A stretch of 64,000 nt of DNA from Acidobacteriota bacterium (GTDB lineage Bacteria > Acidobacteriota > Thermoanaerobaculia > Multivoradales > Multivoraceae), in NCBI GenBank assembly GCA_036337765.1, contig JAYZDP010000104.1, positions 3,764 to 67,763 on the forward strand, written 5' to 3'. Below the pieces are notes generated by a model. The model searched no databases and had not been told where the DNA came from. It worked only from the letters and a program-made list of their open reading frames with translations. Within the stretch, counting starts at the first letter, position 1. Each line of letters begins with the position of its first letter. Of the stretch, positions 24,278 through 36,944 are shown piece by piece. The translations under genes and the position numbers were made by a program.

Positions 24278-26112
24278 GAGACGAGCGCGAGCAGACACCG
24301 ACAGACGAGGAGGAGTGGGTACCCGAGGACGACGCCGTCATCGGGCGTGCATTTCGCGGCTCGCTCGTGGCTCTGGTGGCGGTCGCGGTCCTGGTCGGCG
24401 CCTTGCTCGGACTGAATCGAGGCTGTAGCGAGGCTCCGGACGACCATGAGATCGAAGCTTTTGCCCCGGTCGCGGTAACGCGGGCTGCAGAAGCGCCGTC
24501 CGTGCCGTTTGCCGACGTGACCGCCGCGTCGGGCGTGGGCTTCGTCCATCACAACGGCGCCACCGGCGACAAGCTCCTGCCCGAAACCATGGGCGGTGGA
24601 GTGGCGATCGCCGACCTCGACGGCGACGGCGATCTGGATCTGTTCTTCGTCGACTCTTCGCCCTGGGAAGGCCGGCCGGGCCGGGCCGGGACTCCCGTTC
24701 TGTACGACAACGACGGCACCGGCAGTTTCCGCGACGTGAGCGCGCAGCGCGGCCTCGACGTCAGTCTCTACGGCACCGGCGTCGCGGCTGGTGACTTCGA
24801 CAACGACGGTGATGTCGACCTGTTCGTCGCGGCGGTGGGGGAGAACCTGCTACTGCGAAACGACGACGGAGCCTTTGTCGACGTGACCGCCGAGGCGGGC
24901 GTGGCTGGCGATCCGGGCGAGTGGTCGTCGTCCAGCGCGTTCGTCGACATCGATCGAGACGGCGATCTGGATCTGTTCGTTGGCAACTACGTGCGCTGGT
25001 CGAAGGAGATCGACCTCGAGCTCGACTACCGACTGACCGGGGTCGGCCGCGCCTACGGGCCGCCTGTGAACTACGGCGGTACCTTCCCATATCTCTACCG
25101 CAACGACGGCGACGGGCGCTTCACCGACGTATCGGCCTCGAGCGGTGTCCAGGTGCGCAACGTCGCCACCGGCGGCCCGGTCGCCAAGTCGCTCGGCGTC
25201 ACACCGGTCGACGTCGATCGCGACGGCTGGCTCGATCTCTTTGTCGCCAACGACACGGTGCGCAACTTCCTTCTACACAACCGCCAGGACGGGACGTTCG
25301 AAGATGTCGGCGACCGCTACGGCATCGCCTATGGCCGCGACGGCGCGGCGACCGGCGCGATGGGCGTCGATTGGGCCGACTTCCGCAACGACGGCGAGCT
25401 GGGGTTTCTGGTGGCGAACTTCGCCAACGAGATGAGCTCACTGTTCGTCACCCAGGGCGATCCGGAGCTCTACGCAGATGAGTCGATCATTGAGGGAATC
25501 GGCGCCCCGAGTAGGCGCATGCTCAGTTTTGGGGTCTTCTTCTTCGACTACGACCTCGACGGACGACTCGATGTGCTGCAGTCCAACGGCCATCTCGAAG
25601 AGGCCATCAACGTCGTCGATCCGAGCCAGGAGTACCACCAACCGCTGCAGCTGTTCTGGAATGCGGGCGACGCGGGCATGGTCGAGGTCGATGCCGACAA
25701 GATGGACGACCTCGCACAGCGCCTTGTCGGTCGGGCGACCGCCTATGGCGACCTCGACGGCGACGGCGACCTCGACGTCGTGGTGTGTCAGACCGCGGGC
25801 CCAGCGATCGTGTTTCGTAACGATCAGGCCGAGGGCCATCATTGGCTGCGGGTGAAGCTCGAGGGCAACGGTCGGTCCTCGAACCGCGACGCGATCGGCG
25901 CGGTCGTCGAGCTGACCGCCGGTGGAACCCTACAGCGCCGCGGCGTGACGCCGTCTCGCTCCTACCAGGCACAGGTCGAGCTACCGCTGACCTTCGGACT
26001 CGGCGACGCTGGCTCAGTCGAGGGACTCGTGGTGATCTGGCCCGACGGCTCGACCTCATCGCACGAGGTGGCTCAGGTCGATCGGGTGGTCGTGATCCGC
26101 CAAGAGAGCTGA
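24274..26112 (+). CDS. CRTAC1-family protein (FG-GAP/VCBS-type repeats plus ASPIC/UnbV C-terminal domain)
   Basis: Repeated Ca-binding-like DxDxDGDxD motifs (IADLDGDGDLDLFFV, FDNDGDVDLFVAA, VDIDRDGDLDLFVGNY, VDVDRDGWLDLFVAND, DYDLDGRLDVLQSNG, YGDLDGDGDLDVVVCQ). UnbV_ASPIC-like C-terminus. GTG start overlaps the preceding stop. Confidence 0.85.
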   Translation: MRDEREQTPTDEEEWVPEDDAVIGRAFRGSLVALVAVAVLVGALLGLNRGCSEAPDDHEIEAFAPVAVTRAAEAPSVPFADVTAASGVGFVHHNGATGDKLLPETMGGGVAIADLDGDGDLDLFFVDSSPWEGRPGRAGTPVLYDNDGTGSFRDVSAQRGLDVSLYGTGVAAGDFDNDGDVDLFVAAVGENLLLRNDDGAFVDVTAEAGVAGDPGEWSSSSAFVDIDRDGDLDLFVGNYVRWSKEIDLELDYRLTGVGRAYGPPVNYGGTFPYLYRNDGDGRFTDVSASSGVQVRNVATGGPVAKSLGVTPVDVDRDGWLDLFVANDTVRNFLLHNRQDGTFEDVGDRYGIAYGRDGAATGAMGVDWADFRNDGELGFLVANFANEMSSLFVTQGDPELYADESIIEGIGAPSRRMLSFGVFFFDYDLDGRLDVLQSNGHLEEAINVVDPSQEYHQPLQLFWNAGDAGMVEVDADKMDDLAQRLVGRATAYGDLDGDGDLDVVVCQTAGPAIVFRNDQAEGHHWLRVKLEGNGRSSNRDAIGAVVELTAGGTLQRRGVTPSRSYQAQVELPLTFGLGDAGSVEGLVVIWPDGSTSSHEVAQVDRVVVIRQES

Positions 26113-26166
26113 TGCTAAAATGGCGAATCGCGCACGCTGGAGGAAGAGACGAAAGGGCGAACGGAA

Positions 26167-26901
26167 TTGGAGAAGGAAGCCGCCATCGAAACGGAGCCGA
26201 AGGTGCCTGGAGACCAGCCAGGCCCGCAGCAAGAGGACCGCGAGGGTCGCGATCTGGTTGCTGAGCTGCGCCTTGCCGAGGAGCGCATCCGTCTACTCGA
26301 GCGCGACAAGCTCATCGTGCTCAAGGAGGCCGCCGATGCGCGCCTCCCCTTGGAAGAGCAAGCGAAAGCGGCGCAGGCCGCGTTCGCGGTTGCGCAGGCG
26401 CGCATCGGTGAGCTCGAGGGGGAACGTGACGAGATCCGTGCGTTGCTCGAGAAGTTCCTGGCCGAGAACTGGAGCGATCTGAAGGAGCACACCCCGGCCG
26501 CCGGTGTGCCGATCGGATTGACCGACTTTCTCAGCCCGGCCGAATCCGGCCAGCGCGCGGCTGTGGGTGGCGACGAGGAGTCAGAGGTCGCCCCGCCCCC
26601 AGTGCACCGCTCGGCGAGCGCGCCGCCTCCTAAGCCGACGCAGTCCCCGCGCCGGGCTCCGATCGAGAACAAGGAGGATCTGGGCCAGGTCTTGGCGGCC
26701 GGCGCTTCGATCGAGACCACCGAGAACTTCGCCCGGTTCCAGCCGGTGAAGACCTCGCACATCAAGGTCAGCGACTGGCTGCAGCGCGCTCACGACTATG
26801 AAGCTCTTCGGAATCTCGCCCGCGACGAGGTAGCCGAGGAAGAGCTCGTCTCCGTTCTGTTTCTCTTCATGCAGAAGGCATTCATTCGGGTCGAGCGCTG
26901 A
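26167..26901 (+). CDS. Hypothetical coiled-coil protein (no recognisable domain). Non-ATG (TTG) start.
   Basis: Heptad-rich N-terminal half (LVAELRLAEERIRLLERDKLIVLKEAADARLPLEEQAKAAQAAFAVAQARIGELEGERDEIRALLEKFL). Proline-rich linker. Conserved-looking C-terminus. Confidence 0.45.
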   Translation: MEKEAAIETEPKVPGDQPGPQQEDREGRDLVAELRLAEERIRLLERDKLIVLKEAADARLPLEEQAKAAQAAFAVAQARIGELEGERDEIRALLEKFLAENWSDLKEHTPAAGVPIGLTDFLSPAESGQRAAVGGDEESEVAPPPVHRSASAPPPKPTQSPRRAPIENKEDLGQVLAAGASIETTENFARFQPVKTSHIKVSDWLQRAHDYEALRNLARDEVAEEELVSVLFLFMQKAFIRVER

Positions 26902-26914
26902 GCCGGCTGACCGC

Positions 26915-29488
26915 GTGATGCGCTTGCTCTCCTTCTCGTTGACGATCTTCGCCTTGGCGACACCGCTCGGCGGTGGCTCTCCCCTCGAACCACCTTCCAC
27001 GGGTGGCATCGTCGCCCTACACCGCGCCCTGGCGCGACTCGATGTGCACAAGCGGCTGCTGATCATCGGCGCACACCCCGACGATGAGGACACGAGCCTG
27101 CTCGCCCTGGTGAGTCGAGGGATGGGCGGTGAGGCAGCCTATCTCTCGCTGTCGCGCGGCGAGGGCGGCCAGAACCTCATCGGCACCGAGCTCGGCCGTG
27201 ACCTGGGTCTCGTCCGCAGCCAGGAGCTGCTTTCGGCGCGCGGCGTTGACGGTGGCCATCAGTTCTTCACCCGCGCCTTCGACTTCGGCTACACCCGCTC
27301 GCTCGACGAGACCGTCGGCCGGTGGCCTGAGGAAGTGCTGCTCGAAGACGCGGTGCGGGTGGTGCGGCGGTTCAAGCCGCAGATCATTGTGTCGGTGTTT
27401 CCCAACAGTGCGCGTGCGGGCCACGGCCAGCATCAGGCGGCCGGACTGACCGCGGAGCGAGTGTTCGAGGCGGCCGGCGATCCCGCGCAGTTCCCCGAGA
27501 TGGCCGCCGACGGCTTGGCGCCTTGGCAGCCCAGATCGTTTTACAGATCCGCCTTCTTCCGCCCTGTGCCAGGCAACCTGGTGCTCGAGACCGGAGGCAC
27601 CGACCCCGGCTCGGGTAAGACGTACTTCCAACTGGCGATGGCCTCTCGCAGCATGCATCGCTCCCAGGACATGGGGGTGTTGCAGGACACCGGGCCGCGC
27701 AGCACCCGCGTGGTACGCGAGTCGAGCGACAGCGACGATCCCGATCTCTTCGCCGGTGTGGACACCCACCTTGCGGCGATCGCCGACCTGATCGAGGACC
27801 GCGAGGACCGAGATGCGTCGCGGGCGCGGCTGCAGTCGGCGGCGGACCGCGTAGCGGCGTTGCGCCGGGAGGTCGATCCTGGGAATCTCGGGGTCGCGAC
27901 GGCGGCGCTCGGCGCACTCGTCTCGGATCTGAGAGCCGCGCACGCCCAAGCCGGCGCCGCCACCGTGGCTGGTCAGCTGCTGCGGGAGAAGGTGGAGATC
28001 GCGGAGGAGGCATGGACGATCGCGGCGGGTCTCGTTCTCGACGCGACCACCACCGACGATCGACTGGTCGCCGGTCGCCGCACGGAGATTCGCGTCGTCG
28101 TCTACAACAGCGGCAGCGCGGCGGTCGAGGTGGCCCCCGCACTCGACGTGCCGGCAGGCTGGTCCGATCCCGAAGGCCTGGATCCGCAGCAGGTGCCGGC
28201 CGGAGAGTCGAAGACCTGGACGGTCGAACTGTCGGTTCCGGCATCGGCCGAGCCCACCGTTCCGTACTTTCTGGCCGCGCCGCGCCAGGGCGACGTCTAC
28301 GATTGGTCGGGGGTGGCTGTCGACATCAAGGCAGAGCCCTTCGGGCCGCCGCCGCTGAGTGCGCGCTTTCGCCTGACCGCTGGCGGCTTGGAGCTGGAGC
28401 GGAGTCGCGAGGTCGTCCAGCGCTTTCGCGATCAGGCGGTCGGCGAGCGTCGGCGGCCGCTTCGCGTCGTGCCCGTGGTCGAGGTGGCGGTCGATCCCGC
28501 CCGCCTGGTCTGGCCCGTCGGGCAGGCCTCTCGCAGGACCGTTCGGGTAAGCCTCACCAAGAACGTCGGCGAGGCGCTGGATGGCACCATCGAGGTCAGC
28601 AGCCCGCTCGGCTGGCCCAGTGTCGCCGCCGTCGACTTCTCGCTGGAAGCGACTCGCGAGCGACGTACCTACGAGCTCGTCATCGAGCGCCCCGCCGACG
28701 ACAGCCAGGGCGGCGGCACCTTCGCCTTTGCCGCGGCCCTGTCCAGTGGGGTCGAGAGCCGCGCGGCCTATCCGTTGGTCGACTATCCTCACATCCGCGC
28801 CGTGCCGTGCCCTCGGCCCGCCCTCGCTGACATTCAGCTGCTCGATCTTGAGCTCCCCGGTGCCAAGCGCATCGCCTACATCCGGGGCGCTTCCGATCGG
28901 GTACCCGAGAGCCTGCTCGAGGTGGGTCTGCCGATCCAGCTCGTGACCTCGGACCAGCTCCTCGACATGGACGAGACGGAGCTGGCGAGCTTTGACTCCG
29001 TCGTCATCGGCTCGCGTGCCTACGAGACCGACTCCCGTCTCGCCGAAGCCAATCCCAGGCTACGCGAGTACGTCGCCCGAGGTGGGACCCTGCTGGTCCA
29101 GTACCAGCAGTACGCGTTCAGTCGCGGGGGCATGGCACTGCTACCGCTCAGTATCGCGCGGCCGCACGACCGGATCACCGACGAGACGGCGGCGATGAAC
29201 GTCATTGCTCCCGACCACGGTGCCTTCACCTCTCCGAATGCCATCGGCAAGGCCGACTGGCAGGGCTGGGTACAGGAGCGTGGCCTGTATTTCGCCAACG
29301 AGTGGGACGACAGCTACAAGAGCCTGCTGCGCATTTCCGACCCCGGCCGCGACCCGCAGGAGGGGGGTCTCCTGGTCGCACCGATCGGTGAGGGGACCTA
29401 CATCTACACTGGCCTGGCCTTCTTCCGCCAGCTCCCGGCGGGAGTCCCCGGCGCGTTCCGACTGTTCGCCAACCTGCTCAACCTCTAG
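26915..29488 (+). CDS. Large PIG-L/LmbE-family N-acetylglucosaminyl deacetylase with long C-terminal extension (Ig-like region and a GATase1/ThuA-like domain)
   Basis: LmbE/PIG-L motif LLIIGAHPDDEDTSLLALVS near the N-terminus, after a signal peptide MMRLLSFSLTIFALATPLGG. 857 aa. C-terminal segment ...GGTLLVQYQQYAF...LLVAPIGEGTYIYTGLAFFRQL resembles ThuA/DUF4159-type GATase1-like folds. Confidence 0.75.
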   Translation: MMRLLSFSLTIFALATPLGGGSPLEPPSTGGIVALHRALARLDVHKRLLIIGAHPDDEDTSLLALVSRGMGGEAAYLSLSRGEGGQNLIGTELGRDLGLVRSQELLSARGVDGGHQFFTRAFDFGYTRSLDETVGRWPEEVLLEDAVRVVRRFKPQIIVSVFPNSARAGHGQHQAAGLTAERVFEAAGDPAQFPEMAADGLAPWQPRSFYRSAFFRPVPGNLVLETGGTDPGSGKTYFQLAMASRSMHRSQDMGVLQDTGPRSTRVVRESSDSDDPDLFAGVDTHLAAIADLIEDREDRDASRARLQSAADRVAALRREVDPGNLGVATAALGALVSDLRAAHAQAGAATVAGQLLREKVEIAEEAWTIAAGLVLDATTTDDRLVAGRRTEIRVVVYNSGSAAVEVAPALDVPAGWSDPEGLDPQQVPAGESKTWTVELSVPASAEPTVPYFLAAPRQGDVYDWSGVAVDIKAEPFGPPPLSARFRLTAGGLELERSREVVQRFRDQAVGERRRPLRVVPVVEVAVDPARLVWPVGQASRRTVRVSLTKNVGEALDGTIEVSSPLGWPSVAAVDFSLEATRERRTYELVIERPADDSQGGGTFAFAAALSSGVESRAAYPLVDYPHIRAVPCPRPALADIQLLDLELPGAKRIAYIRGASDRVPESLLEVGLPIQLVTSDQLLDMDETELASFDSVVIGSRAYETDSRLAEANPRLREYVARGGTLLVQYQQYAFSRGGMALLPLSIARPHDRITDETAAMNVIAPDHGAFTSPNAIGKADWQGWVQERGLYFANEWDDSYKSLLRISDPGRDPQEGGLLVAPIGEGTYIYTGLAFFRQLPAGVPGAFRLFANLLNL

Positions 29489-29700: not shown

Positions 29701-32079
29701 TCATCCCCGGCGTCGTAGATGGACACCACGCTTGAGCGACAGCTCTCGCCCGGGCCTCCAGCCGCGCCGTCGGCCGTCGCGCAGGGCGCGGACTGCGGTC
29801 GAAAGGACCTGGGCGGCGCCTTCGAGAGCCGAGCCGCCAGGGGACTCTAAATAGCGGCGCAAGTGGCCCCAGCGGGATCGCGGGTCGGGGCGTGCTTCGA
29901 GCTCGGCGAGGACACTGACGCCCTCCCACTCGGGAAGCCGACGCCAGTGTCGGTAGAGGCGGACGGCGACACTGCGGTCGAGGGCCTCGTCGCGGCGCTG
30001 CGGGACGGCGGTCAACCAGGCAGGCTCGGCCGCCAGCCAGCCGAGAGGGCCGGCGAGCGCTCGGGTGACGAGCGCGAGCTCCTCGGCGACATCGCAGCGA
30101 TGGGCGCAGTCGGCCAGGCGGTCGGCGTCGATGAGGTCATCGCGCTCGAGGGCGAGGGCGAGGTCGAGGACGGCGCGCATCGTGACCGCGAGGTCGTGGT
30201 GCAGGAGGTGCCCGAGGGCGAGGATGAGCGCATGCTCGGGCGCCGGGGCTTCGAAGCGCACGCCGCCCGCCTGGCAGGAGGTGGCGTGGTCCCAGGTCTG
30301 CTCGAGCAACCATGGGCGCTCCGACAGCTCGTCCCAGAGATCGAAGTGGAGCTCGATCGAACGACCGGTCTCCGGGTCGTGGCGCTCGACGTGGTGGGGT
30401 GCCGTGCGGCCTCGCTCGGTGTAGCCGAGGGCCTCTAGCTCGCGTTCGAGCGCGCGGAGCTCCGCCGGGCGGCAGAGGAGGTCGAGGTCGACCATCGGAC
30501 GCAGACCGGGGGCACCGTAGAAGCGGGCGATGTCGGCCGGGCCCTTGAAAGCCAGTGGGCGCAACCCGAGTTCGCGGCAGCGCTCGAGGAGGCGGCCGAG
30601 GTCGTCGAGCCGGCGGCCGTTGTGGAGTGCCGTCAGGCAGGAGGCGCCGAACCAGTCGTCGCGCACCGCGGCGTCAACTTGGAAGGGCAGCCGGCCGTCG
30701 TGGGCGAGATGGCTGAGGACGGGCTGCAGCCGGTGCGCCGCCGCGAGGATGACCAGGCGGTCGAGGTCGTCGACCGGTCGGGGCGGTGGCTGGCCTCCGG
30801 TCGCCTTCGAGACGAACTCTCTGCAGGCCCGCTCGAGGAGGGCGATGCACGAGTCGACCGGCGTGGTTTCGAAACGGTCGGCGGCGAGGGGCGGCCGCGA
30901 CCCCGCGGCCTCGACCGCGAACCCCATGCCCTCGGCGAGGCGTCGGCAGACGCGGTCGCTAGCGTAGTCGGACGCCAGCTGGCCGCGCTTGGCGGCGGCG
31001 ATCCGGCGGGCCTCTCCGCGGTGCTCGAAGACCCAGCGCAGCAGCTCGCTCGCGTGGGCTCGGTCGGCTCGGGCCCAGTGCGGGGGACCCGAGGCGGTGC
31101 GGTACTCCTCGTCGGGAGCCTCGACCAGGTCGTAGCGCACCGCGAGCGGCCAGTCATCGCCGAGGTAGTCCTTCTGGCCTCCCCAACCGGTAAGGATCGC
31201 GGGATTGCCGAAGAGCAGCGCCTCGAAGGGGCAGATGCCCCAGCCCTCGCTGCGCGGCAGCCCGAAGAAGCAGTCGCCCCGTGTGTGCAGGCCGTCGATG
31301 GTGCGCGGCGAGACCTCCTCGGCTACGAGATGCACGCGCCCGCGGCCCGGGTACTCCGCCAGGATCTTCGCCACCTGCCACCAGGTCATCTGCTCGTGCG
31401 GCACGGCGCGGCCCACGCGGTCGCCCTCGAGGGCACCGGGCACGATCGAATCGGTCTTGACCACCAGCACTACACGCTCGTCGGCCCGGAAGGTCTCGAG
31501 GTAGGCCCGCAGGGTGTCGCTCATGGACTTGCGCGGGGTCCAGGTGGCGATGGTGTAGAAGACGAAGTCGTCGTTCTCGATCGCCCGCAGCGCGTCGGGC
31601 ACCGGAGCGCGCCGGACCTCCCGCGCGATGTGCGGCACGATCTCGATGGGTCGGGTGATGCCCTCCGACGCCAGCACCGAACGGTTGAACTCACTCGGCA
31701 CGAAGAGGCGCTCGAACCCATTCAGAACGTCGCACCAGCCGTCCGGAAGGCGATCCATCTCCCAGGCGACGTAGGCGTAGGGCGTCAGGTCGAGCGCCTT
31801 GCGCAACCAGTGGGCGTGGGCCCTCGGCGGAGGCACGTCGATCAGCAGGGTGTCGACGTCGAGAGGGCGGTGGTGGAGCCGCAGGACGCGTTCATCGATC
31901 GCCGGGTGCAGGCCCGGTAGCCGGTCGAGCGAGCTGGGCGTGTCGAGCCCCTTCGCGATCGGCCACCACGTCAGGGGGACCCCAAGCCGGTCGAGCCCTG
32001 CCGCGTAGAGCGTGGCGGCGTCGCCGTAGCCGGAGCCCGGCAGCTGGGTGACTAGCTGCAGTCCGCGGGGCGGCGTCAT
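29701..32079 (-). CDS. Fusion protein: GT4-family (GT-B) glycosyltransferase fused to a PF14907-type uncharacterised nucleotidyltransferase domain. The two halves are ordered N-terminal glycosyltransferase, C-terminal nucleotidyltransferase. Start set at ATG 32079 (MTPPRGLQLV), which overlaps the upstream gene stop as ATGA.
   Basis: Glycos_transf_1-like region FVPSEFNRSVL ... GDCFFGLPRSEGWGICPFEALLFGNPAILTGWGGQKDYL. C-terminal half has the NTP_transf_5 pattern: DRLVILAAAHRLQPVL ... LRPLAFKGPADIARFYGAPGLRPMVDLDLLCRPAELRALERELEALGY ... IELHFDLWD. Confidence 0.75.
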   Translation of the reverse strand: MTPPRGLQLVTQLPGSGYGDAATLYAAGLDRLGVPLTWWPIAKGLDTPSSLDRLPGLHPAIDERVLRLHHRPLDVDTLLIDVPPPRAHAHWLRKALDLTPYAYVAWEMDRLPDGWCDVLNGFERLFVPSEFNRSVLASEGITRPIEIVPHIAREVRRAPVPDALRAIENDDFVFYTIATWTPRKSMSDTLRAYLETFRADERVVLVVKTDSIVPGALEGDRVGRAVPHEQMTWWQVAKILAEYPGRGRVHLVAEEVSPRTIDGLHTRGDCFFGLPRSEGWGICPFEALLFGNPAILTGWGGQKDYLGDDWPLAVRYDLVEAPDEEYRTASGPPHWARADRAHASELLRWVFEHRGEARRIAAAKRGQLASDYASDRVCRRLAEGMGFAVEAAGSRPPLAADRFETTPVDSCIALLERACREFVSKATGGQPPPRPVDDLDRLVILAAAHRLQPVLSHLAHDGRLPFQVDAAVRDDWFGASCLTALHNGRRLDDLGRLLERCRELGLRPLAFKGPADIARFYGAPGLRPMVDLDLLCRPAELRALERELEALGYTERGRTAPHHVERHDPETGRSIELHFDLWDELSERPWLLEQTWDHATSCQAGGVRFEAPAPEHALILALGHLLHHDLAVTMRAVLDLALALERDDLIDADRLADCAHRCDVAEELALVTRALAGPLGWLAAEPAWLTAVPQRRDEALDRSVAVRLYRHWRRLPEWEGVSVLAELEARPDPRSRWGHLRRYLESPGGSALEGAAQVLSTAVRALRDGRRRGWRPGRELSLKRGVHLRRRG

Positions 32080-32948
32080 CGAGGCCCGGCCGCGAGCTCG
32101 TGCGGCGTCGGGACGAGGGGCTGCAGCAGGCGGGCGAGCCCACTCGACGAGCGGTGGATGCGCGTGACGGTGAGCTCCTCGGCGTGGTGGGTCGAGAAGT
32201 CGACTCGATCCTCTTCCCACCACATGTGCTGCCACAGGTGGAGCGAGGAGGCCTCGCCGGTGTCCAGCGGCTCTTCGGCGAAGAGCCGTGCGATCCCCTC
32301 CGGCGTCGAGCGCACCGGGAAGAACGTCGCCTCGGGCTCGACGTGGATCTCGTCGGGGAGCTCTTCGCTGAGCTGCTGCGCGAGGAAGCCCGAGTGGTTG
32401 CTCCAGCTGCCGTCGAGGGCACCCTCCATACGTTCACGCCAGGTGCGGGCGAAGAGCGAGCCGGGCTCGGCCATCAGCAGGGCGTTGCAGAGGGACGGCT
32501 TGACGTTGCCGGTGTGTTCGTCGACGACCGGCGGCTCTCGGCCGATGACGAAGCTCTCTTCCCACAGGTGCTCCGGTGGCGGCCGCAGGAAGATCGTGTC
32601 GATGTCGGCGTAGAGACCGCCGTGCTCGATCAGGGCGTCGAGTCGCACGAAGTCGGCCTGGTGGGCATAGCGGTAGGCTTCGGGGACGAGCCGGTCATCG
32701 TAGCGCGCGCGATCGATCTCGACCGGCCGCTCGACACGAACCAACTCCAGGTGCGGCCGGATCTCCTCCCACAGAGCGCCGAACGGCAGCGAATGGTAGT
32801 GCAGCACGATCTTCTCCGGCCGGACGACCTGGCGACACGACTCGATGGCCGCGTAGTGGAGCGGGTGAAAGGTGAGCCGCTGAGGGCGGAGTCCGAAGAC
32901 GAAGTGCGCGATGCGCGGGATCCCGGCCATGGGAGAGGGAAGTGACAT
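32076..32948 (-). CDS. GT32-like glycosyltransferase (Och1/DXD sugar-binding region family)
   Basis: N-terminal IPRIAHFVFG (compare IPKxIHQIW) and ADFVRLDALIEHGGLYADIDTIF (DXD-containing motif of Gly_transf_sug). Start ATG 32948 (alternative ATG 32930). Translationally coupled to the downstream GT-NTase gene. Confidence 0.65.
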   Translation of the reverse strand: MSLPSPMAGIPRIAHFVFGLRPQRLTFHPLHYAAIESCRQVVRPEKIVLHYHSLPFGALWEEIRPHLELVRVERPVEIDRARYDDRLVPEAYRYAHQADFVRLDALIEHGGLYADIDTIFLRPPPEHLWEESFVIGREPPVVDEHTGNVKPSLCNALLMAEPGSLFARTWRERMEGALDGSWSNHSGFLAQQLSEELPDEIHVEPEATFFPVRSTPEGIARLFAEEPLDTGEASSLHLWQHMWWEEDRVDFSTHHAEELTVTRIHRSSSGLARLLQPLVPTPHELAAGPR

Positions 32949-32974
32949 TAGCACGCGACCGCGGGCGGAGCCTG

Positions 32975-34234
32975 ATGCTCGCTCCGCTGGTGCCCGAGCC
33001 GACGGGCAACGGCTTGGCGATGCGGGCGGCGACGTCGCTCGAGGCCTTGGCGCGCCTCGGCGACGTGACACTGGTGGTCGTTCCGGCGGCCGATCCGGAG
33101 GCCGCCCGACGCGACGCTGGCTGGGCGCGCGAGCGGTGCGAGCGGTTGGTGCTCATGGCGCTGCCCTCCGGCCGGGAGGCCGCAGCCGCGTGGCTCGCCT
33201 CGCCCACGGGGCGTCGGATCGCGGCCGCCGCTGGGTCGTTGCCGTCGCTCGCGCGGGGGGTGCCGCCGGTTCTCGGCAGCCGGCTCGCTGCCGAGCTGGG
33301 ACGGGGCTTCGAGCGTATCTTCACGCTTCGGCTTTACCTGTCCGGCGTGGCCCTCGGCTGGCGCGACGCGGAAGCGGCGGGCGCTCCGCAGCTCGTGCTC
33401 GATCTCGACGAGGACGACGCTGCGACGCTCTCGGCAATCGCCCGGCTCGAAGCGGCACGTGGCGTGGGGGATCGCGCCCGGAAGACCCGGGAGGAGGCGG
33501 AGGCCTTCGGCCGCCTCGCGGGCGCTGCTCTACCGAACTTTGACCGTCTGCTGGCGTCGACCGTACTCGAGGCGCAGGGTCTGGCCGCGGCGACTGGCGG
33601 ACGGGAGATCGTCGTAGTGCCGAACGCGGTGCGACGGCCCGGGAACGGTGACAGCCCAGGGAGGCCGCCTGCATCAAGCGCAGGGTCGGCGGCTCCCCGA
33701 CTGCTGCTGGTCGGCAACTACTCCTACCTGCCGAATGTCGATGCAGCCGAACGCCTGGTGCGGGGCATCCTGCCGCGTCTTCGCGAGTCCCGTTCCGAGG
33801 CGGAGGCGCACCTGGTGGGCGGGGGCGGCGGCTCGGTGCTCGAGGCTCTGGCGAGGGAGGATGGAGCGGTCGTCCACGGCTGGGTCGACGACCTCCGGCC
33901 GCACTACGGCGCGGCGGCGGTGGTGGTGGTGCCGCTGCGGGCCGGCGGTGGCAGCCGCCTGAAGATCCTCGAGGCGGCGGCTCACGGCGTGCCGGTGGTC
34001 GCCACTCCGGTAGCCGCTCGGGGGCTCGAGGGGCTACGCGACGGCCGGGAGATCCGCCTGGCCGAGAGCGACGACGAGTTGGCTCTTGCGGTCCGGACGG
34101 TGCTCGACGATCCGGCGGCCGCCGCGGCGGTCGCGGAACGGGCTCGCGATCGGGTGCTTGCGGCGCACGCGGCCGACCGCGTCGCGGCCGATTTGGCGAC
34201 CCTCCTCGAGACTCCCTCGACCGGGCGCCGGTGA
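32975..34234 (+). CDS. GT4-family glycosyltransferase (group 1). Start ATG 32975 (MLAPLVPEP); the ORF could extend to GTG 32942.
   Basis: N-terminal MLAPLVPEPTGNGLAMRA (compare RIL.L.P..P..GG). C-terminal Glycos_transf_1 motifs GGGGGSVLEAL ... GGGSRLKILEAAAHGVPVVATPVAARGL. Confidence 0.8.
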   Translation: MLAPLVPEPTGNGLAMRAATSLEALARLGDVTLVVVPAADPEAARRDAGWARERCERLVLMALPSGREAAAAWLASPTGRRIAAAAGSLPSLARGVPPVLGSRLAAELGRGFERIFTLRLYLSGVALGWRDAEAAGAPQLVLDLDEDDAATLSAIARLEAARGVGDRARKTREEAEAFGRLAGAALPNFDRLLASTVLEAQGLAAATGGREIVVVPNAVRRPGNGDSPGRPPASSAGSAAPRLLLVGNYSYLPNVDAAERLVRGILPRLRESRSEAEAHLVGGGGGSVLEALAREDGAVVHGWVDDLRPHYGAAAVVVVPLRAGGGSRLKILEAAAHGVPVVATPVAARGLEGLRDGREIRLAESDDELALAVRTVLDDPAAAAAVAERARDRVLAAHAADRVAADLATLLETPSTGRR

Positions 34235-34249
34235 TACCGTGCGCGGATT

Positions 34250-34531
34250 GTGAGCGAGTCACCGAAGTACGAGCGGGCGCCGGGCCTGGAGTCGCACGAG
34301 GCCGATGATGGACTGGTGATCTTCGATCCCGCCGTCGACAAGATCCACCACATCAACTCCTCGGCCGGAGTGTTCTTCGAGCTCTGCGACGGCACCCGTG
34401 ACGCCGAGCGCATCGCCGAGGTCGCGACCGGCGTCTTCGGCCCGGACGAATTGCCGGAGGGCGCCGTCGCACAGGCGCTCGAGATGCTGGTGCGCGAGGG
34501 CATCGTACGGCAGGTCGACGGGGACTCTTGA
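34250..34531 (+). CDS. PqqD-family protein (RiPP recognition element, peptide chaperone)
   Basis: 93 aa. DGLVIFDPAVDKIHHINSSAGVFFELCDGTRDAERIAEVATGVFG...AVAQALEMLVREGIV matches the PqqD consensus along its whole length. GTG start 16 nt after the GT4 stop. Confidence 0.8.
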   Translation: MSESPKYERAPGLESHEADDGLVIFDPAVDKIHHINSSAGVFFELCDGTRDAERIAEVATGVFGPDELPEGAVAQALEMLVREGIVRQVDGDS

Positions 34532-35385
34532 TCTCCTTCCAACTGCTCGACACCCGGGTGGAGGTCGTGCGCGACGACCCGGTGATCGACGGCGGGCTGC
34601 GCTACCTGGCGCACGGCGCTTCGAGCGAGGTCGTCGTCCGGCGGACGATACGCTATGCCATCGAGGGCTCGGGGCCGTGGCTGCTGCGCGAGGAGGGCGA
34701 CGCTGTCGACGTCCTGGAAGATCCGGACGACTTGCTCTGGTTCCTCTTTGTGCGTGTACACGGTCGGGTGTGCGAGCGCTATTCGCTGGCGGGCTGGTCG
34801 ACCTTCCACGCCGCCGTCGCGGGCGTGCGAGGCGTGCGGCTGTTGTTCGTCGGACCGTCGAGCGTCGGCAAATCGACTCTCGCTTCGACGCTGCTCTTTG
34901 GGGGGCATTCGGTCGAGGGCGACGAGATGGCCTTCGAGCGCGCTGGCGTCGTGGTGCCGCTGGCGCGCCGCTTTCATCTCAAGGAAGGGATCGAGCGGCA
35001 CGTGTCGGGCCTGGCCCCCTGGATCGACGATCTGCCGGCGGTCAGGCGCGACGGCGCGCCGGTGCGGGCCTTCGACCCGAGCGAGCACGGCTTCGAGTGG
35101 AGGGTGAGGTCGGCGCCGGTCGACGCGGTCGTCTGTCTGCGCGCCGAGCACGGCGGAGAGAGCCGGCTTCGGGAGATAACGACCTTCGAAGCGCTGACGG
35201 GATTGCTGGGCGGTGCTCTGAACTGGGTCCAGTCGCGAAGCGTCCTGGTGGCGGCGGCGACGCGGCTGGCCAGGGCGCGGCGGGTCGAGCTCACCTTGGG
35301 ACGGCCCTCCGAGACCCTGGCGGCGCTCGAGTCCTGGTGCGGCTCGATCGACGGGAAGTTGCCGGACACGGACGGGATCGTCTAG
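34528..35385 (+). CDS. HPr-kinase-like (HprK C-terminal-domain-like) P-loop kinase, of the type found in phosphorylating lasso-peptide clusters
   Basis: Walker A GPSSVGKSTLASTLL in the context LLFVGPSSVGKST...GHSVEGDEMAF. About 285 aa. Start overlaps the PqqD stop (TTGA). Confidence 0.7.
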   Translation: MISFQLLDTRVEVVRDDPVIDGGLRYLAHGASSEVVVRRTIRYAIEGSGPWLLREEGDAVDVLEDPDDLLWFLFVRVHGRVCERYSLAGWSTFHAAVAGVRGVRLLFVGPSSVGKSTLASTLLFGGHSVEGDEMAFERAGVVVPLARRFHLKEGIERHVSGLAPWIDDLPAVRRDGAPVRAFDPSEHGFEWRVRSAPVDAVVCLRAEHGGESRLREITTFEALTGLLGGALNWVQSRSVLVAAATRLARARRVELTLGRPSETLAALESWCGSIDGKLPDTDGIV

Positions 35386-35415
35386 GATGCGCTCGTACAT
35401 CACGGGAGACCACCC

Positions 35416-35580
35416 ATGTCGAAGAGAGAAGAGGCCCTTGAAGAGTTCGACGAGTCGCGACGCGACTTCGTGCGCAAGGCCGGCGTGGCCGGTTTCGTGG
35501 CGCCGGTGGTGGCGTCGTTCACGATGTCCGGTCTGATGGCCCGCCCGGCCGCCGCGCAGGCACCGAACCAGTCGCCATAG
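35416..35580 (+). CDS. 54-aa peptide MSKREEALEEFDESRRDFVRKAGVAGFVAPVVASFTMSGLMARPAAAQAPNQSP. It resembles a twin-arginine (Tat) signal peptide with almost no mature domain, and is the candidate substrate (precursor) of the surrounding PqqD/HprK/NTase/GT cluster.
   Basis: ATG preceded by GGGAGA at -12. Located 30 nt after the kinase gene and 10 nt before the GT2-TPR gene, co-oriented. Contains SRRDFVRK (RRxFLK-like), a hydrophobic h-region and an AQA motif. Ends NQSP with a Ser at the penultimate position. Confidence 0.5.
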   Translation: MSKREEALEEFDESRRDFVRKAGVAGFVAPVVASFTMSGLMARPAAAQAPNQSP

Positions 35581-35589
35581 AGCCCGGCG

Positions 35590-36687
35590 GTGGTGCGCGT
35601 CACCGCTGCCCTCATTGTCCGCGACGAAGCGGAGCATCTGCGCGCTTGCCTACAGGCGGCCGGTCCGCTCGTTGACGAGATCGTCGTCGTCGACACCGGA
35701 TCGGATGACGACAGCCCGGCGGTCGCCGAGGCGGCTGGGGCGCACGTGATCTACGATGCGTGGCGGGACGACTTCGCTCGCCCTCGCAACCTCGGCCTCG
35801 AGGCCGCCACGGGCGACTGGATCCTCTACCTCGACGCCGACGAGAGGGTGGCGGCGGAGCCGGGGTGGCGACAGCGGCTTGAGGCGCCCGATGTCCTGGG
35901 GGCCCGGGTGGCGTTCCGCGCGGCCAGCCACCTGACCCCGTACACCGAGCTCCGCCTCTTCCGTAGCCGCCCGGACCTGCGCTTCCGCGGCGCCATCCAC
36001 GAGACGGTGGTCCCGGACGTCGAGGCAGTCGCGGCCCGCGAGGGCGTGCGGGTGGTCGACGCGCCCGAGGTCTTCGTGGAGCACCTCGGCTACGAGGGTG
36101 ATCGAACGCCCAAGTACCGGCGCGACCTGCCGATCCTGCGCCGGGCTGTCGAGGACGATCCCGATCGTCTCTTTCTCTGGCACGCCCTGGGCGAGGCGGC
36201 GCTCGGGCTGGGGCGGCGCGTCGAGGCGGAGCGGGCGTGGCGGCGCGGCGTCGAGGTTGCCCGGAGGGCCCCGGGGAATGCGATCGGTACCATGTTGTGG
36301 GTCGACCTCATCTCGATGCACTTTGCGTGGGAGACGATCGAGGACGTCGAAGCCCTGGTCGATGAGGCACTGGTCCGGTCCCCCGAGGACCCGGCGGTGC
36401 TCTGGTGGAGCGCACGCTGGTCCGCCGAGGCTGGCGATCCCGTTGGGGCGGAGCGGCGGCTGCGTGCCCTCCTCGAACGGGGAGAGCCGAAAGGGCCCGG
36501 CGCGGTCGGGGTCGACCGGCGGCTCTTCGGCGAGCTCGGCTGGGCCCTGCTGGGGTCGGTGCTGCTGGCCGAGGGGCGTGACGAAGAGGCGCTACGCTAC
36601 CTGAGGCTTGCGGCGGAGCGGCGCCCGGACGACGCCGAGCTGCGGGCGAAGCGAAGCCTCGCCGAGTCCCGCCTGACGTCGGCCTGA
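35590..36687 (+). CDS. GT2-family glycosyltransferase (SpsA-like) with C-terminal TPR repeats
   Basis: N-terminal ALIVRDEAEHLRACLQAAGPLVDEIVVVDTGSDDDS ... WILYLDADERV (GT2 DxD). C-terminal helical repeats (LGEAALGLGRRVEAERAWRRGVEVAR..., LAEGRDEEALRYLRLAAERRPDDAEL). Confidence 0.8.
   Translation: MVRVTAALIVRDEAEHLRACLQAAGPLVDEIVVVDTGSDDDSPAVAEAAGAHVIYDAWRDDFARPRNLGLEAATGDWILYLDADERVAAEPGWRQRLEAPDVLGARVAFRAASHLTPYTELRLFRSRPDLRFRGAIHETVVPDVEAVAAREGVRVVDAPEVFVEHLGYEGDRTPKYRRDLPILRRAVEDDPDRLFLWHALGEAALGLGRRVEAERAWRRGVEVARRAPGNAIGTMLWVDLISMHFAWETIEDVEALVDEALVRSPEDPAVLWWSARWSAEAGDPVGAERRLRALLERGEPKGPGAVGVDRRLFGELGWALLGSVLLAEGRDEEALRYLRLAAERRPDDAELRAKRSLAESRLTSA

Positions 36688-36867: not shown

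Positions 36868-36944
<77 letters not shown>

What the first reader, a model, noticed from the sequence alone, without database searches (positions are those of the whole stretch)
29701..36687. Compact PqqD + HPr-kinase-like + PF14907 nucleotidyltransferase + four-glycosyltransferase cluster around a 54-aa peptide: candidate undescribed RRE-dependent peptide phospho-glycosylation system
Seven tightly packed genes form two divergent operons (features listed at 29701-36687). Minus strand: a GT32-like gene translationally coupled (ATGA) to a GT4::nucleotidyltransferase fusion. Plus strand: GT4, PqqD-like RRE, HprK-like P-loop kinase, 54-aa peptide, GT2-TPR. The PqqD/HprK-like kinase/NTP_transf_5 trio is described only for lasso peptides whose C-terminal Ser is phosphorylated (paeninodin type) and then glycosylated on the phosphate by the nucleotidyltransferase (pseudomycoidin type). 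This window has no lasso cyclase (Asn-synthetase-like) and no B2 leader protease, and it adds three extra glycosyltransferases and a neighbouring PIG-L deacetylase. The simplest reading is a non-lasso system in which an RRE presents a small peptide (C-terminal ...NQSP) to a kinase and to glycosyl-adding enzymes, giving a peptide-phospho-glycan conjugate. I do not know this arrangement as a described system.
Basis: partly seen in the sequence, partly recalled or inferred. Interest (0 to 1): 0.9.

Follow-up and report, generated by a model that had tools for sequence, protein, structure and literature searches.

The report
Peptide phospho-glycosylation cassette, Tat-like leader
The seven genes are real and belong to a widespread, unnamed bacterial gene cassette in which a peptide-binding chaperone, a kinase and several sugar-adding enzymes most likely decorate the short tail of a small gene-encoded peptide whose front end looks like an export signal.

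Summary
Profile, structure-sequence and fold searches confirm six enzymes. These are a GT-B glycosyltransferase fused to PF14907 NTP_transf_5, a GT32-like enzyme, a GT4, PqqD (an RRE peptide-binding domain), an HprK/PEPCK-fold P-loop kinase, and a GT2-TPR closest to the protein and peptide glycosyltransferases GmaR and SunS. The seventh gene is the 54-aa ORF.

No lasso cyclase or B2 protease was found in the window. Neither recurred among 106 flanking ORFs of related loci.

A degenerate kinase motif retrieved 89 loci from distinct genomes: Alpha- and Gammaproteobacteria, Acidobacteriota, Actinomycetota and Rokubacteria. They share the order GT4 > PqqD > kinase > 1-8 small ORFs > GT2-TPR > NTP_transf_5, often with divergent GT32 and GT-B genes.

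The small ORFs form an uncurated precursor family of at least 484 clusters. The leader carries [RK]R-x-F-L-K-K and an almost invariant F-x-x-P-x-V/I, which matches the Y/WxxPxL motif bound by lasso RREs. The core is short and variable, with N-x-S/T at a fixed distance, often at the C-terminus.

The closest characterised system is the Bacillota LPP family (2026). This cassette lacks LPP's dedicated peptidase and exporter and has a different leader. The PIG-L neighbour is not part of it. I rate it a new variant of a known kind; the chemistry is inferred.

The parts
29701..32079 (-). Gene A, 792 aa, a fusion. The N-terminal GT-B (GT4-like) glycosyltransferase covers aa 1 to about 430 (nt 30790-32079). 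The PF14907 NTP_transf_5 nucleotidyltransferase-like domain covers aa 438-673 (nt 30061-30768).
   Evidence: PF14907 E=3.7e-41. The AF2 model of aa 1-430 matches GT-B/GT4 structures, with 3oy2 at E=3.9e-15. No other instance of this fusion was found. In other loci the two parts are separate genes.
32076..32948 (-). Gene B, about 290 aa, a GT32-like (Och1-type DXD) glycosyltransferase. It is translationally coupled to A through an ATGA overlap at 32076-32079.
   Evidence: PF04488 E=7.9e-9, above the cut-off. Homologs lie divergently upstream of the cassette in 25 loci. A GT32::GT-B fusion sits next to a PqqD gene in L093.
32942..34234 (+). Gene C, 430 aa, a GT4 glycosyltransferase and the first gene of the plus-strand operon. 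An alternative ATG start lies at 32975.
   Evidence: PF13692 E=1.5e-23. The best NCBIfam match is the stp1 PEP-CTERM glycosyltransferase at 115 bits, below the 316-bit cut-off. Homologs lie directly upstream of PqqD in 62 loci.
34250..34531 (+). Gene D, 93 aa, a discrete PqqD-family RiPP recognition element (RRE).
   Evidence: PF05402 scores 26.4 bits, above the gathering score of 23.4. NCBI names it 'PqqD family peptide modification chaperone'. Homologs are present in 79 of 92 loci, and in 21 of 22 loci with adequate flanks.
34528..35385 (+). Gene E, 285 aa, an HprK/PEPCK-fold P-loop kinase. The P-loop is at aa 109-117 and the GDE motif at aa 131-133.
   Evidence: The family has 525 representatives. 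H94, G114, K115, T117, G126, D132, R147 and G188 are invariant, and E133 is nearly so. The profile hits HPrK/P chains 1jb1, 2qmh and 1ko7 at E about 2e-6. The AF2 model has pLDDT 94.9, and its Foldseek top hits are PEPCK and HprK/P.
35416..35580 (+). Gene F, the 54-aa precursor peptide MSKREEALEEFDESRRDFVRKAGVAGFVAPVVASFTMSGLMARPAAAQAPNQSP. The leader is roughly aa 1-47/49 and the core is (Q)APNQSP.
   Evidence: It is conserved downstream of the kinase in about 80 loci. The family has at least 484 clusters, all annotated as hypothetical or as 'tail fiber domain' proteins. No Pfam or NCBIfam precursor model covers it.
35455..35478 (+). Tat-consensus-like n-region S14-R-R-D-F-V-R-K21 within F.
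   Evidence: Read directly from the sequence. TIGR01409 TAT_signal scores 15.5 bits against a cut-off of 16.7, and 9 of 42 family members hit it. Across the family the split is RR in 51 and KR in 50 of 101.
35494..35511 (+). F27-V-A-P30-V-V32, the candidate RRE-binding motif (F-x-x-P-x-V/I) within F.
   Evidence: Among 101 non-redundant family members, F occurs in 95, P in 101 and V/I in 101. The motif has the form of the [Y/W]xxPx[L/V/I/F/A] motif bound by discrete lasso and LPP RREs.
35566..35574 (+). N51-Q52-S53, the conserved N-x-S/T core motif within F. Ser53 is the proposed modification site.
   Evidence: N-x-S/T lies 8-22 residues after the motif block in 68 of 101 peptides. Shuffled controls give 15.5±3.4, with a maximum of 30 in 1000 shuffles. 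The position peaks at 14-15, and N51 is at 15.
35590..36687 (+). Gene G, 365 aa, a GT2 (GT-A) catalytic domain plus C-terminal TPR repeats, of the peptide/protein glycosyltransferase type.
   Evidence: PF00535 E=5.8e-15 plus TPR families. The best NCBIfam match is the SunS peptide S-glycosyltransferase at 49 bits, below the cut-off. The closest solved chains are GmaR at 8e-17 and SunS and 7msk at about 1e-11. Homologs lie directly downstream of the precursor genes in 65 loci.

Best explanation
The locus is one member of a widespread, so far unnamed RiPP-like cassette. The canonical order is GT4 > PqqD > HprK-like kinase > precursor(s) > GT2-TPR > NTP_transf_5, with or without divergent GT32 and GT-B genes.

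Proposed mechanism:
(i) The 54-aa peptide is the substrate.
(ii) The discrete PqqD RRE binds the leader through the near-invariant F27-x-x-P30-x-V32 motif.
(iii) The RRE-bound peptide is presented to the soluble HprK-like kinase. The kinase phosphorylates the conserved Ser/Thr of the N-x-S/T motif (Ser53), which sits a fixed ~15-17 residues downstream and next to the C-terminus.
(iv) The PF14907 domain adds sugar to the phosphate, as in pseudomycoidin. The SunS/GmaR-like GT2-TPR acts directly on the peptide. GT4, GT32 and the GT-B domain of A extend a glycan that is probably mannose-rich.
(v) All of this happens in the cytoplasm.
(vi) The cassette has no dedicated protease or exporter. The leader looks like a Tat/Sec signal with an A-x-A site. 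The modified peptide is therefore probably exported by a general pathway and trimmed by signal peptidase I, or it stays membrane-anchored.

Shown here: domain identities, conserved synteny, precursor-family features, and absence of lasso genes. Inferred: steps ii-vi.
For: Domain identities.

Synteny. 89 of 90 motif-retrieved genome loci carry a kinase homolog in the same gene order. In 22 loci with adequate flanks the counts are PqqD 21, precursor 20, GT2-TPR 19, GT4 17 and NTP_transf_5 14.

Precursor hallmarks. The leader is conserved and the core is hypervariable. There are 1-8 tandem copies per locus. F-x-x-P-x-V/I is near-invariant. N-x-S/T is enriched 4-fold over shuffles at a fixed distance. 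13 of 62 short cores end exactly in N-x-S/T, and 31 of 62 end within 3 residues of it.

Precedents:
- HprK-like kinases phosphorylate the C-terminal Ser of paeninodin precursors.
- LppK phosphorylates Ser3 of the LPP core, and that system also uses an RRE.
- The PF14907-type enzyme adds hexoses to the phosphoserine of pseudomycoidin.
- The RRE-binding motif is [Y/W]xxPx[L/V/I/F/A].

Localisation. The enzymes have no TM-like stretch, with a maximum 19-residue Kyte-Doolittle mean (KD19) of 1.32 or less. The peptide reaches 1.71.

Export. ABC_tran occurs in only 2 of 106 flanking ORFs, and no peptidase recurs.

Sugar type. Flanks are rich in Mannosyl_trans3 (13), Anp1 (9) and GT10 (4), and one locus has a phosphomannose isomerase.
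Against: - No chemistry was measured.
- The kinase scores below the curated cut-offs of PF07475 and TIGR04352.
- The roles of the Asn and the Ser/Thr cannot be separated. Acidimicrobiia cores replace N-x-S with S/T-rich 'TPSSSG'.
- LppN, the LPP NTP transferase, was inactive when tested heterologously, so the PF14907 function rests on one in vivo lasso study.
- Only half of the family keeps twin arginines, and 0 of 42 hit Pfam TAT_signal. This weakens Tat export.
- Pro50 and Pro54 flank the window's motif, and a Pro right after A-Q-A would disfavour signal peptidase I at that bond.
- The loci are 8-kb blocks, so genes further away were not seen.
Confidence: 0.7

Rival explanations
1. Glycocin-like system. 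The SunS/GmaR-like GT2-TPR is the primary enzyme and glycosylates the core Ser/Thr, or Cys in some homologs, directly. The kinase and the PF14907 domain act later, for example on the sugar, or have a regulatory or immunity role.
For: G's closest solved relatives are protein and peptide glycosyltransferases: GmaR at 8e-17, and SunS and 7msk at about 1e-11. G-type genes always follow the precursor genes. Some homologous cores place N-x-S/T between two Cys, as in disulfide-looped glycocins: L034, L090 and L015.
Against: G scores 49 bits against a 350-bit cut-off for the SunS family. The window core has no Cys. The kinase and the RRE are conserved more strictly than any glycosyltransferase. Every characterised RRE-associated HprK-like kinase phosphorylates the peptide itself. 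This rival partly overlaps the main model rather than excluding it.
Confidence: 0.18
2. Cytoplasmic Asn-linked glycosylation. The conserved N-x-S/T is a true sequon. One of the glycosyltransferases attaches sugar to Asn51, and yeast-mannan-type families (GT32, Anp1/GT62, Mnn1-like) extend it.
For: N-x-S/T is positionally fixed and 4-fold enriched. GT32-like, Anp1 and Mannosyl_trans3 genes recur in the cassettes.
Against: There is no HMW1C/GT41-type or PglB-type N-glycosyltransferase here. Some members replace Asn with Asp or Ser/Thr while keeping the Ser, as in RDGSG and TPSSSG. This reading leaves the strictly conserved kinase without a role.
Confidence: 0.08
3. Ordinary surface-polysaccharide locus. 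The small ORF is an unrelated Tat/Sec-secreted mini-protein, and PqqD and the kinase regulate glycan synthesis.
For: The locus is rich in glycosyltransferases. C resembles PEP-CTERM/EPS glycosyltransferases. The leader resembles a signal peptide.
Against: No polysaccharide polymerase, flippase or initiating transferase recurs in the flanks. The small ORF is strictly adjacent to the kinase and the RRE. It shows tandem amplification with variable tails and carries an RRE-type motif inside its hydrophobic region. These are precursor features, not features of a random secreted protein.
Confidence: 0.04
4. Degraded lasso-peptide cluster that has lost its cyclase and B2 protease.
For: The trio of RRE, HprK-like kinase and PF14907 enzyme is best known from paeninodin and pseudomycoidin lasso clusters.
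Against: No Asn_synthase or Transglut_core3 hit was found in the window, and neither recurs in 106 flanking ORFs. The same cyclase-less architecture is conserved across at least 5 phyla. The core is too short for a lasso, at 5-7 residues.
Confidence: 0.01

Closest known systems
Linear polyphosphorylated peptides (LPP; lppAKBSDN) of Bacillota, Popov et al., Nat Commun 2026 (PMC13381572)
   Same: [quoted passage not shown] It has 1-3 precursors with a conserved N-terminus and a variable C-terminus, and an aromatic-x-x-P-x-V leader motif. It is embedded in glycosyltransferase-rich loci. In LPP the kinase polyphosphorylates a single core Ser.
   Different: LPP is defined by a SipW-like signal peptidase (LppS) and an MsbA-like exporter (LppD). 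Both are absent here. The leader differs: YxxPxVLxHQxIxFETxxS in LPP, against [RK]RxFLKK...FxxPxVxSF...AxA here. LPP is stated to be restricted to Bacillota, whereas this cassette occurs in Acidobacteriota, Proteobacteria, Actinomycetota and Rokubacteria. GT4 and GT2-TPR are core genes here.
Phosphorylated and phosphoglycosylated lasso peptides (paeninodin, pseudomycoidin)
   Same: An HprK-like kinase acts on a C-terminal Ser of the linear precursor. A PF14907-type nucleotidyltransferase adds hexose to the phosphate. A discrete RRE is present.
   Different: There is no lasso cyclase or B2 protease, and the core is too short to form a lasso.
NCBIfam 'HPr-rel-A system' (TIGR04352 HprK-related kinase A plus TIGR04353 PqqD family chaperone)
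   Same: These are the best-scoring curated families for both E and D. They define a non-lasso pairing of an HprK-like kinase with a PqqD protein.
   Different: Scores are far below the cut-offs. E scores 25 bits against 200. The best score among 20 cassette kinases is E=3e-17. D scores 21 bits against 35. This is a sister clade, not a member. I found no literature on that system.
Glycocin S/O-glycosyltransferases (SunS, ThuS) and the flagellin O-GlcNAc transferase GmaR
   Same: G shares the architecture of a GT2 catalytic domain plus a helical-repeat C-terminal domain. These are its closest solved relatives.
   Different: G scores below the SunS family cut-off. Glycocin systems have no RRE, kinase or PF14907 enzyme. 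Their precursors are helical and disulfide-bonded.
Tat signal peptides and their binding chaperones (TorD/DmsD-type REMPs); functional analogy only
   Same: F carries S-R-R-x-F-V-R-K, a mildly hydrophobic region, a basic residue in the c-region and A-x-A. A small cytoplasmic protein is predicted to bind inside the signal.
   Different: Half of the family has KR rather than RR. The hydrophobic region is conserved in sequence, which is unlike signal peptides. No REMP homolog is present. Export was not tested.

Membership tests
Lasso peptide biosynthetic cluster (paeninodin/pseudomycoidin type) | Lasso cyclase (Asn-synthetase-like, PF00733) | tested here: not met
   No hit was found in the seven proteins or in 20 flanking proteins between 10 and 52 kb. 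The family does not occur in two or more of 106 flanking ORFs of homologous loci.
Lasso peptide biosynthetic cluster (paeninodin/pseudomycoidin type) | B2 leader protease (PF13471 Transglut_core3) | tested here: not met
   Same searches as for the cyclase.
Lasso peptide biosynthetic cluster (paeninodin/pseudomycoidin type) | Discrete RRE (B1/PqqD) with a leader motif of the form aromatic-x-x-P-x-hydrophobic | tested here: met
   PF05402 scores above its gathering score. F-x-x-P-x-V/I occurs in 95-101 of 101 precursors.
LPP family (Popov et al. 2026) | SipW-like signal peptidase I (LppS) as leader peptidase | tested here: not met
   No S26/S24 peptidase was found in the window's cluster or flanks, and none recurs in homologous loci.
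LPP family (Popov et al. 2026) | MsbA-like ABC exporter (LppD) | tested here: not met
   No ABC transporter was found among the 27 window proteins scanned. ABC_tran occurs in only 2 of 106 flanking ORFs.
LPP family (Popov et al. 2026) | Discrete RRE plus HprK-like kinase plus NTP transferase | tested here: met
   The trio is also present in L001 and in at least 50 loci.
LPP family (Popov et al. 2026) | Leader consensus YxxPxVLxHQxIxFETxxS | tested here: not met
   The window leader reads FVAPVVASFTMSGLMARP. Only the aromatic-x-x-P-x-V part is shared.
LPP family (Popov et al. 2026) | Polyphosphorylation of one core Ser | not testable with these tools
   This needs mass spectrometry of the co-expressed peptide.
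NCBIfam HPr-rel-A system | Kinase reaches the TIGR04352 cut-off (200 bits) | tested here: not met
   E scores 25.2 bits. The best values among related kinases are E=5.9e-15 and 3.2e-17.
NCBIfam HPr-rel-A system | PqqD protein reaches the TIGR04353 cut-off (35 bits) | tested here: not met
   D scores 21 bits. A few homologs come close, with a best value of 2.1e-10.
Glycocin (SunS-type) system | Glycosyltransferase reaches the TIGR04195 SunS family cut-off (350 bits) | tested here: not met
   G scores 49.2 bits over the N-terminal 140 aa. SunS, ThuS and GmaR are nevertheless its nearest solved chains.
Twin-arginine (Tat) signal peptide | S/T-R-R-x-F-L-K motif and a TIGR01409 score at or above 16.7 bits | tested here: inconclusive
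   SRRDFVRK is present. TIGR01409 scores 15.5 bits, just under the cut-off, and 9 of 42 relatives hit it. Pfam TAT_signal hits 0 of 42. Across the family the split is RR 51 and KR 50.
SynChlorMet cassette (ScmC/ScmD) | Radical SAM/SPASM maturases next to the HprK-like ScmC and the PqqD-like ScmD | tested here: not met
   No radical SAM domain was found in the window's cluster or flanks. The ScmC and ScmD models give only weak hits.

The most novel reading that the evidence does not exclude
The leader is a genuine Tat/Sec export signal that doubles as the RiPP leader.

The PqqD RRE clamps the F-x-x-P-x-V motif inside the signal's hydrophobic region. In doing so it acts like a Tat 'proofreading' chaperone and holds the peptide in the cytoplasm. 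Meanwhile the kinase, the PF14907 domain and four soluble glycosyltransferases build a phospho-linked, mannose-rich glycan on the N-x-S tail.

The bulky product is then exported without any dedicated transporter. Housekeeping signal peptidase I serves as the 'leader peptidase' and releases a 5-10-residue phosphoglycopeptide, or the uncleaved signal leaves a signal-anchored glycan on the cell surface.

This would be a ribosomal-peptide-primed route to surface or secreted glycans in Gram-negative bacteria and Actinomycetota.
Probability: 0.25. Interest if true: 0.85.

Novelty: new variant of a known kind. Interest (0 to 1): 0.72.

Why it matters
RRE-guided peptide phosphorylation with sugar addition was known from a few Bacillota lasso peptides and, since 2026, from the Bacillota-restricted LPP family. 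The final products and biological roles of both are still unknown.

This locus shows that a related but distinct cassette is widespread outside Bacillota. The kinase family has at least 525 representatives and the precursor family at least 484 clusters, spread over soil and marine Proteobacteria, Acidobacteriota and Actinomycetota. It has its own uncurated precursor family, obligatory peptide-type glycosyltransferases, and no dedicated protease or exporter.

It yields sharp, testable predictions:
- an F-x-x-P-x-V recognition motif;
- a single conserved Ser/Thr site next to the C-terminus;
- a signal-peptide-like leader.

It also occurs in cultured strains in which the product could be identified: Devosia sp. 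Root413D1, Devosia insulae DS-56, Bradyrhizobium diazoefficiens SZCCT0138, Mesorhizobium sp. KR9-304 and Actinospongicola halichondriae Hal317.

If the export idea holds, the cassette would link RiPP logic to general protein export and to cell-surface glycan synthesis.

Tried and rejected
- A word-index homolog search with the kinase gave only 2 non-self hits. The exhaustive representative search was needed.
- The search for related loci with the single kinase found nothing in genome contigs. A hand-made degenerate pattern running from the P-loop to the GDE motif solved this.
- Literature searches for 'ScmC', 'HprK-related kinase', PF14907, and twin-arginine together with RiPP returned nothing relevant. 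ScmC turned out to be Haft's SynChlorMet cassette protein.
- Upstream genes were tested as possible parts: PIG-L/NPCBM, the 244-aa ORF, and FG-GAP/ASPIC. None occurred in any of the 92 loci, so all were rejected.
- The genomic-island idea (higher GC, adjacent tRNA-Met) was checked. No att-like direct repeats flank the cluster, only chance-level matches.
- phmmer of D against PDB sequences found no significant hit.
- phmmer of A and of B against PDB sequences was uninformative. Fold search was needed for A's N-terminal domain.
- Pfam and NCBIfam have no model for the precursor family. The only hits are weak Tat-signal matches, plus Peptidase_S74 in one subfamily.

Full report
OBSERVATION. The window has 65-69% GC and comes from an Acidobacteriota MAG. 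The proteins match NCBI records on a 94,467-bp contig, locus tags VYE73_07420/07425. All seven ORFs are present at the stated positions.

Minus strand:
- B (32076-32948) has the GT32-type DXD domain PF04488, E=7.9e-9.
- B's TGA overlaps the ATG of A (29701-32079).
- A carries PF14907 NTP_transf_5 at aa 438-673, E=3.7e-41.
- A's N-terminal 430 aa is only a sub-threshold Glycos_transf_1 hit. An AF2 model (pLDDT 69) matches GT-B/GT4 enzymes: 3oy2 at E=3.9e-15, plus GlgM, PimB', BshA and MshA.

Plus strand:
- C is a GT4 (PF13692, 1.5e-23).
- D is PqqD (26.4 bits, above the gathering score of 23.4).
- E is the P-loop protein.
- F is the 54-aa ORF.
- G is GT2 plus TPR.
- Gaps are operon-like: 15 nt, a TTGA overlap, 30 nt with a GGGAG ribosome-binding site, and 9 nt.

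E is weak against single HMMs (PF07475 19 bits, TIGR04352 25 bits). The HprK-like assignment holds on stronger tests:
- A 32-sequence profile hits HPrK/P chains at about 2e-6 across the His, P-loop and acidic-motif region.
- H94, G114, K115, T117, D132 and R147 are invariant.
- The AF2 model (pLDDT 94.9) retrieves PEPCK and HprK/P as top folds.

No Asn-synthetase-like cyclase or Transglut_core3 protease was found among 20 flanking proteins between 10 and 52 kb. Those flanks are housekeeping genes: enolase, ftsB, mfd, surA and mraW-mur downstream; PBP, PALP enzyme and DNA polymerase B upstream.

THE CASSETTE IS WIDESPREAD. The kinase has 525 representatives at E<=1e-3 in the exhaustive library. 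A degenerate DNA pattern spanning the P-loop to the GDE motif retrieved 90 genome loci. Of these, 89 encode a kinase homolog. The taxa are:
- Alphaproteobacteria: Devosia, Bradyrhizobium, Mesorhizobium, Xanthobacteraceae, Acidocella;
- Gammaproteobacteria: Halieaceae;
- Acidobacteriota;
- Actinomycetota: Acidimicrobiia, Microthrixaceae, Solirubrobacterales, Actinospongicola;
- Rokubacteria.

HMMs built from the window's proteins show one recurring order: [GT-B< GT32<] GT4> PqqD> kinase> small ORF(s)> GT2-TPR> NTP_transf_5.

In the 22 loci with enough flank, the counts are PqqD 21, small ORF 20, GT2-TPR 19, GT4 17, NTP_transf_5 14, GT32 11 and GT-B 10.

In the window, NTP_transf_5 has become fused to the GT-B gene. 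No other instance of that fusion was found. Elsewhere a GT32::GT-B fusion sits beside a PqqD gene.

The PIG-L/NPCBM, 244-aa and FG-GAP genes upstream occur in none of the loci.

Among 106 unassigned flanking ORFs, the recurrent families are further glycosyltransferases: Mannosyl_trans3 in 13, Anp1 in 9 and GT10 in 4. No lasso enzyme, peptidase or exporter family recurs, and ABC_tran appears only twice.

THE SMALL ORF IS A PRECURSOR FAMILY. A profile of the small ORFs finds 103 copies (101 non-redundant) in about 80 loci. All lie on the kinase strand, typically 10-130 nt downstream, with 1-8 tandem copies per locus. In the large protein collection there are at least 484 clusters. Every one is annotated 'hypothetical' or, for one subfamily, 'tail fiber domain-containing'. 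No Pfam or NCBIfam model covers the family.

Anatomy of the precursor:
- An acidic N-terminus.
- [RK]R-x-[FT]-[LI]-x-[KR]; the window has S-R-R-D-F-V-R-K.
- A block F-x-x-P-x-[VI]-x-[ST]-[FY], with F in 95, P in 101 and V/I in 101 of 101.
- x-M/I-x-G-L and an A-x-A-like stretch.
- A short, variable tail.

N-x-S/T lies 8-22 residues after the block in 68 of 101 peptides. Shuffled controls give 15.5±3.4, with a maximum of 30 in 1000 shuffles. The position peaks sharply at 14-15, and the window's N51 is at 15. Of 62 short tails, 13 end exactly in N-x-S/T and 31 end within three residues of it.

Where Asn is missing, a Ser/Thr is still kept at that place (RDGSG, TPSSSG, TASSSG). The hydroxyl residue is therefore the most conserved core feature.

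The F-x-x-P-x-V block has the form of the [Y/W]xxPx[L/V/I/F/A] motif that discrete lasso and LPP RREs bind.

The RR members resemble Tat signals. 9 of 42 hit TIGR01409, and the window scores 15.5 bits against a cut-off of 16.7. Half of the family has KR, however, and none hits Pfam TAT_signal.

MECHANISM. Shown:
- The enzyme families are identified.
- All six enzymes lack TM-like segments, with a maximum 19-residue Kyte-Doolittle mean (KD19) of 1.32 or less. The only hydrophobic stretch is in F, at 1.71.
- G's nearest solved relatives are enzymes that glycosylate proteins or peptides directly: GmaR at 8e-17, SunS and ThuS-like at about 1e-11.

From the literature:
- HprK-like kinases phosphorylate the C-terminal Ser of paeninodin precursors with little other sequence requirement.
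- A PF14907-type enzyme adds one or two hexoses to that phosphate in pseudomycoidin.
- LppK polyphosphorylates Ser3 of the LPP core in an RRE-containing system.

Inferred:
- D binds F27-x-x-P30-x-V32.
- E phosphorylates Ser53.
- A's PF14907 domain and G add the first sugars.
- C, B and A's GT-B domain extend a glycan that is probably mannose-containing.
- Because there is no cassette protease or exporter and the leader is signal-like with A-x-A, export and trimming probably use general machinery.

The order of kinase and GT2-TPR action, and the role of Asn51, are open.

COMPARISON. The nearest characterised system is the LPP family (PMC13381572). It shares the RRE, the HprK-like kinase, the NTP transferase, the linear peptide and the glycosyltransferase-rich surroundings. 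LPP is defined by a SipW-like peptidase and an MsbA-like pump, has a different leader, and is reported as restricted to Bacillota. This cassette therefore fails LPP membership.

It also fails lasso membership, because it has no cyclase and no B2 protease.

The closest curated families are the HPr-rel-A system models. The kinases score far below the cut-off, with a best value of 3e-17 in 20 tested. They form a sister clade.

I found no paper describing this cassette or its precursor family.

VERDICT. The locus is one member of a large, uncharacterised family. I rate that family a new variant of the RRE + HprK-like kinase + NTP-transferase peptide-modification kind. The chemistry and the fate of the product are inferred, not shown.

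LIMITS. The homologous loci are fixed 8-kb blocks, so distal genes were not seen. The RRE fold and the RRE-leader complex could not be modelled. No experiment was possible.

Noticed in passing
window 36868-36944 (-): A tRNA-Met (CAT) gene lies 180 nt downstream of gene G. The cluster has higher GC (0.70-0.76) than its flanks (about 0.65-0.67). This suggests a horizontally acquired island, but no att-like direct repeats were found.
   Followed up: partly
L004 5076-5480, L023 5396-5839, L026 6830-7432, L034 2289-2702, L037 1223-2071, L056 5489-6454, L082 6138-7068, L086 3479-3895; P0171 and many others: A large alphaproteobacterial subfamily of the precursors continues after the N-G-S-G core. 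The extension is a C-terminal Peptidase_S74 'chaperone of endosialidase' self-cleaving domain with the SDRRLK signature. NCBI annotates these as 'tail fiber domain-containing protein'. Self-cleavage would create a new C-terminus a few residues after the N-x-S motif.
   Followed up: partly
L052 1235-4618; also L010, L012, L034, L035, L056, L090, L015: Precursor genes occur in tandem arrays: 8 copies in L052 and 3 in several other loci. Leaders are conserved and tails diverge, which is a typical RiPP precursor pattern.
   Followed up: yes
L090 4672-5488, L034 3091-3665 and 2289-2702, L015 7002-7702: Some cores place the N-x-S/T motif between two cysteines, for example VCSNMLHSGKC, SCVSNSSCG and VCVSNSTCA. 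This suggests a small disulfide loop around the modified site, reminiscent of glycocins.
   Followed up: no
L001 1940-2233; L019, L033, L039, L028, L048, L060, L083, L085 precursors: Acidimicrobiia and other actinobacterial precursors carry long Thr-rich, mucin-like tails of 30-110 aa after the conserved 'AQTxSSSG' site. Many have further NQT/NTT motifs, which hints at multi-site glycosylation.
   Followed up: no
L015 2995-4542, L056 1276-2805, L073 3468-4991, L090 348-2126, L047 6195-7703, L036 2691-3851: Mannosyl_trans3 (Mnn1-like) proteins of about 510 aa flank the cassette in many loci, and Anp1 and GT10 families recur. One locus has a phosphomannose isomerase right after GT2-TPR. Together with the GT32-like gene, these are families best known from yeast mannan synthesis.
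   Followed up: partly
L093 1657-4049 (P0006): A 673-aa GT32::GT-B fusion lies next to a PqqD gene in an unrelated metagenome. It is the counterpart of the window's separate B gene plus the N-terminal half of A, and it supports a functional link between the two.
   Followed up: partly
window 21482-29488 (+): Upstream neighbours are a 931-aa multihaem cytochrome c554-like/TPR protein, an FG-GAP/ASPIC protein, a 244-aa protein with no family hit, and an 857-aa PIG-L plus NPCBM_assoc protein. None co-occurs with the cassette elsewhere.
   Followed up: yes
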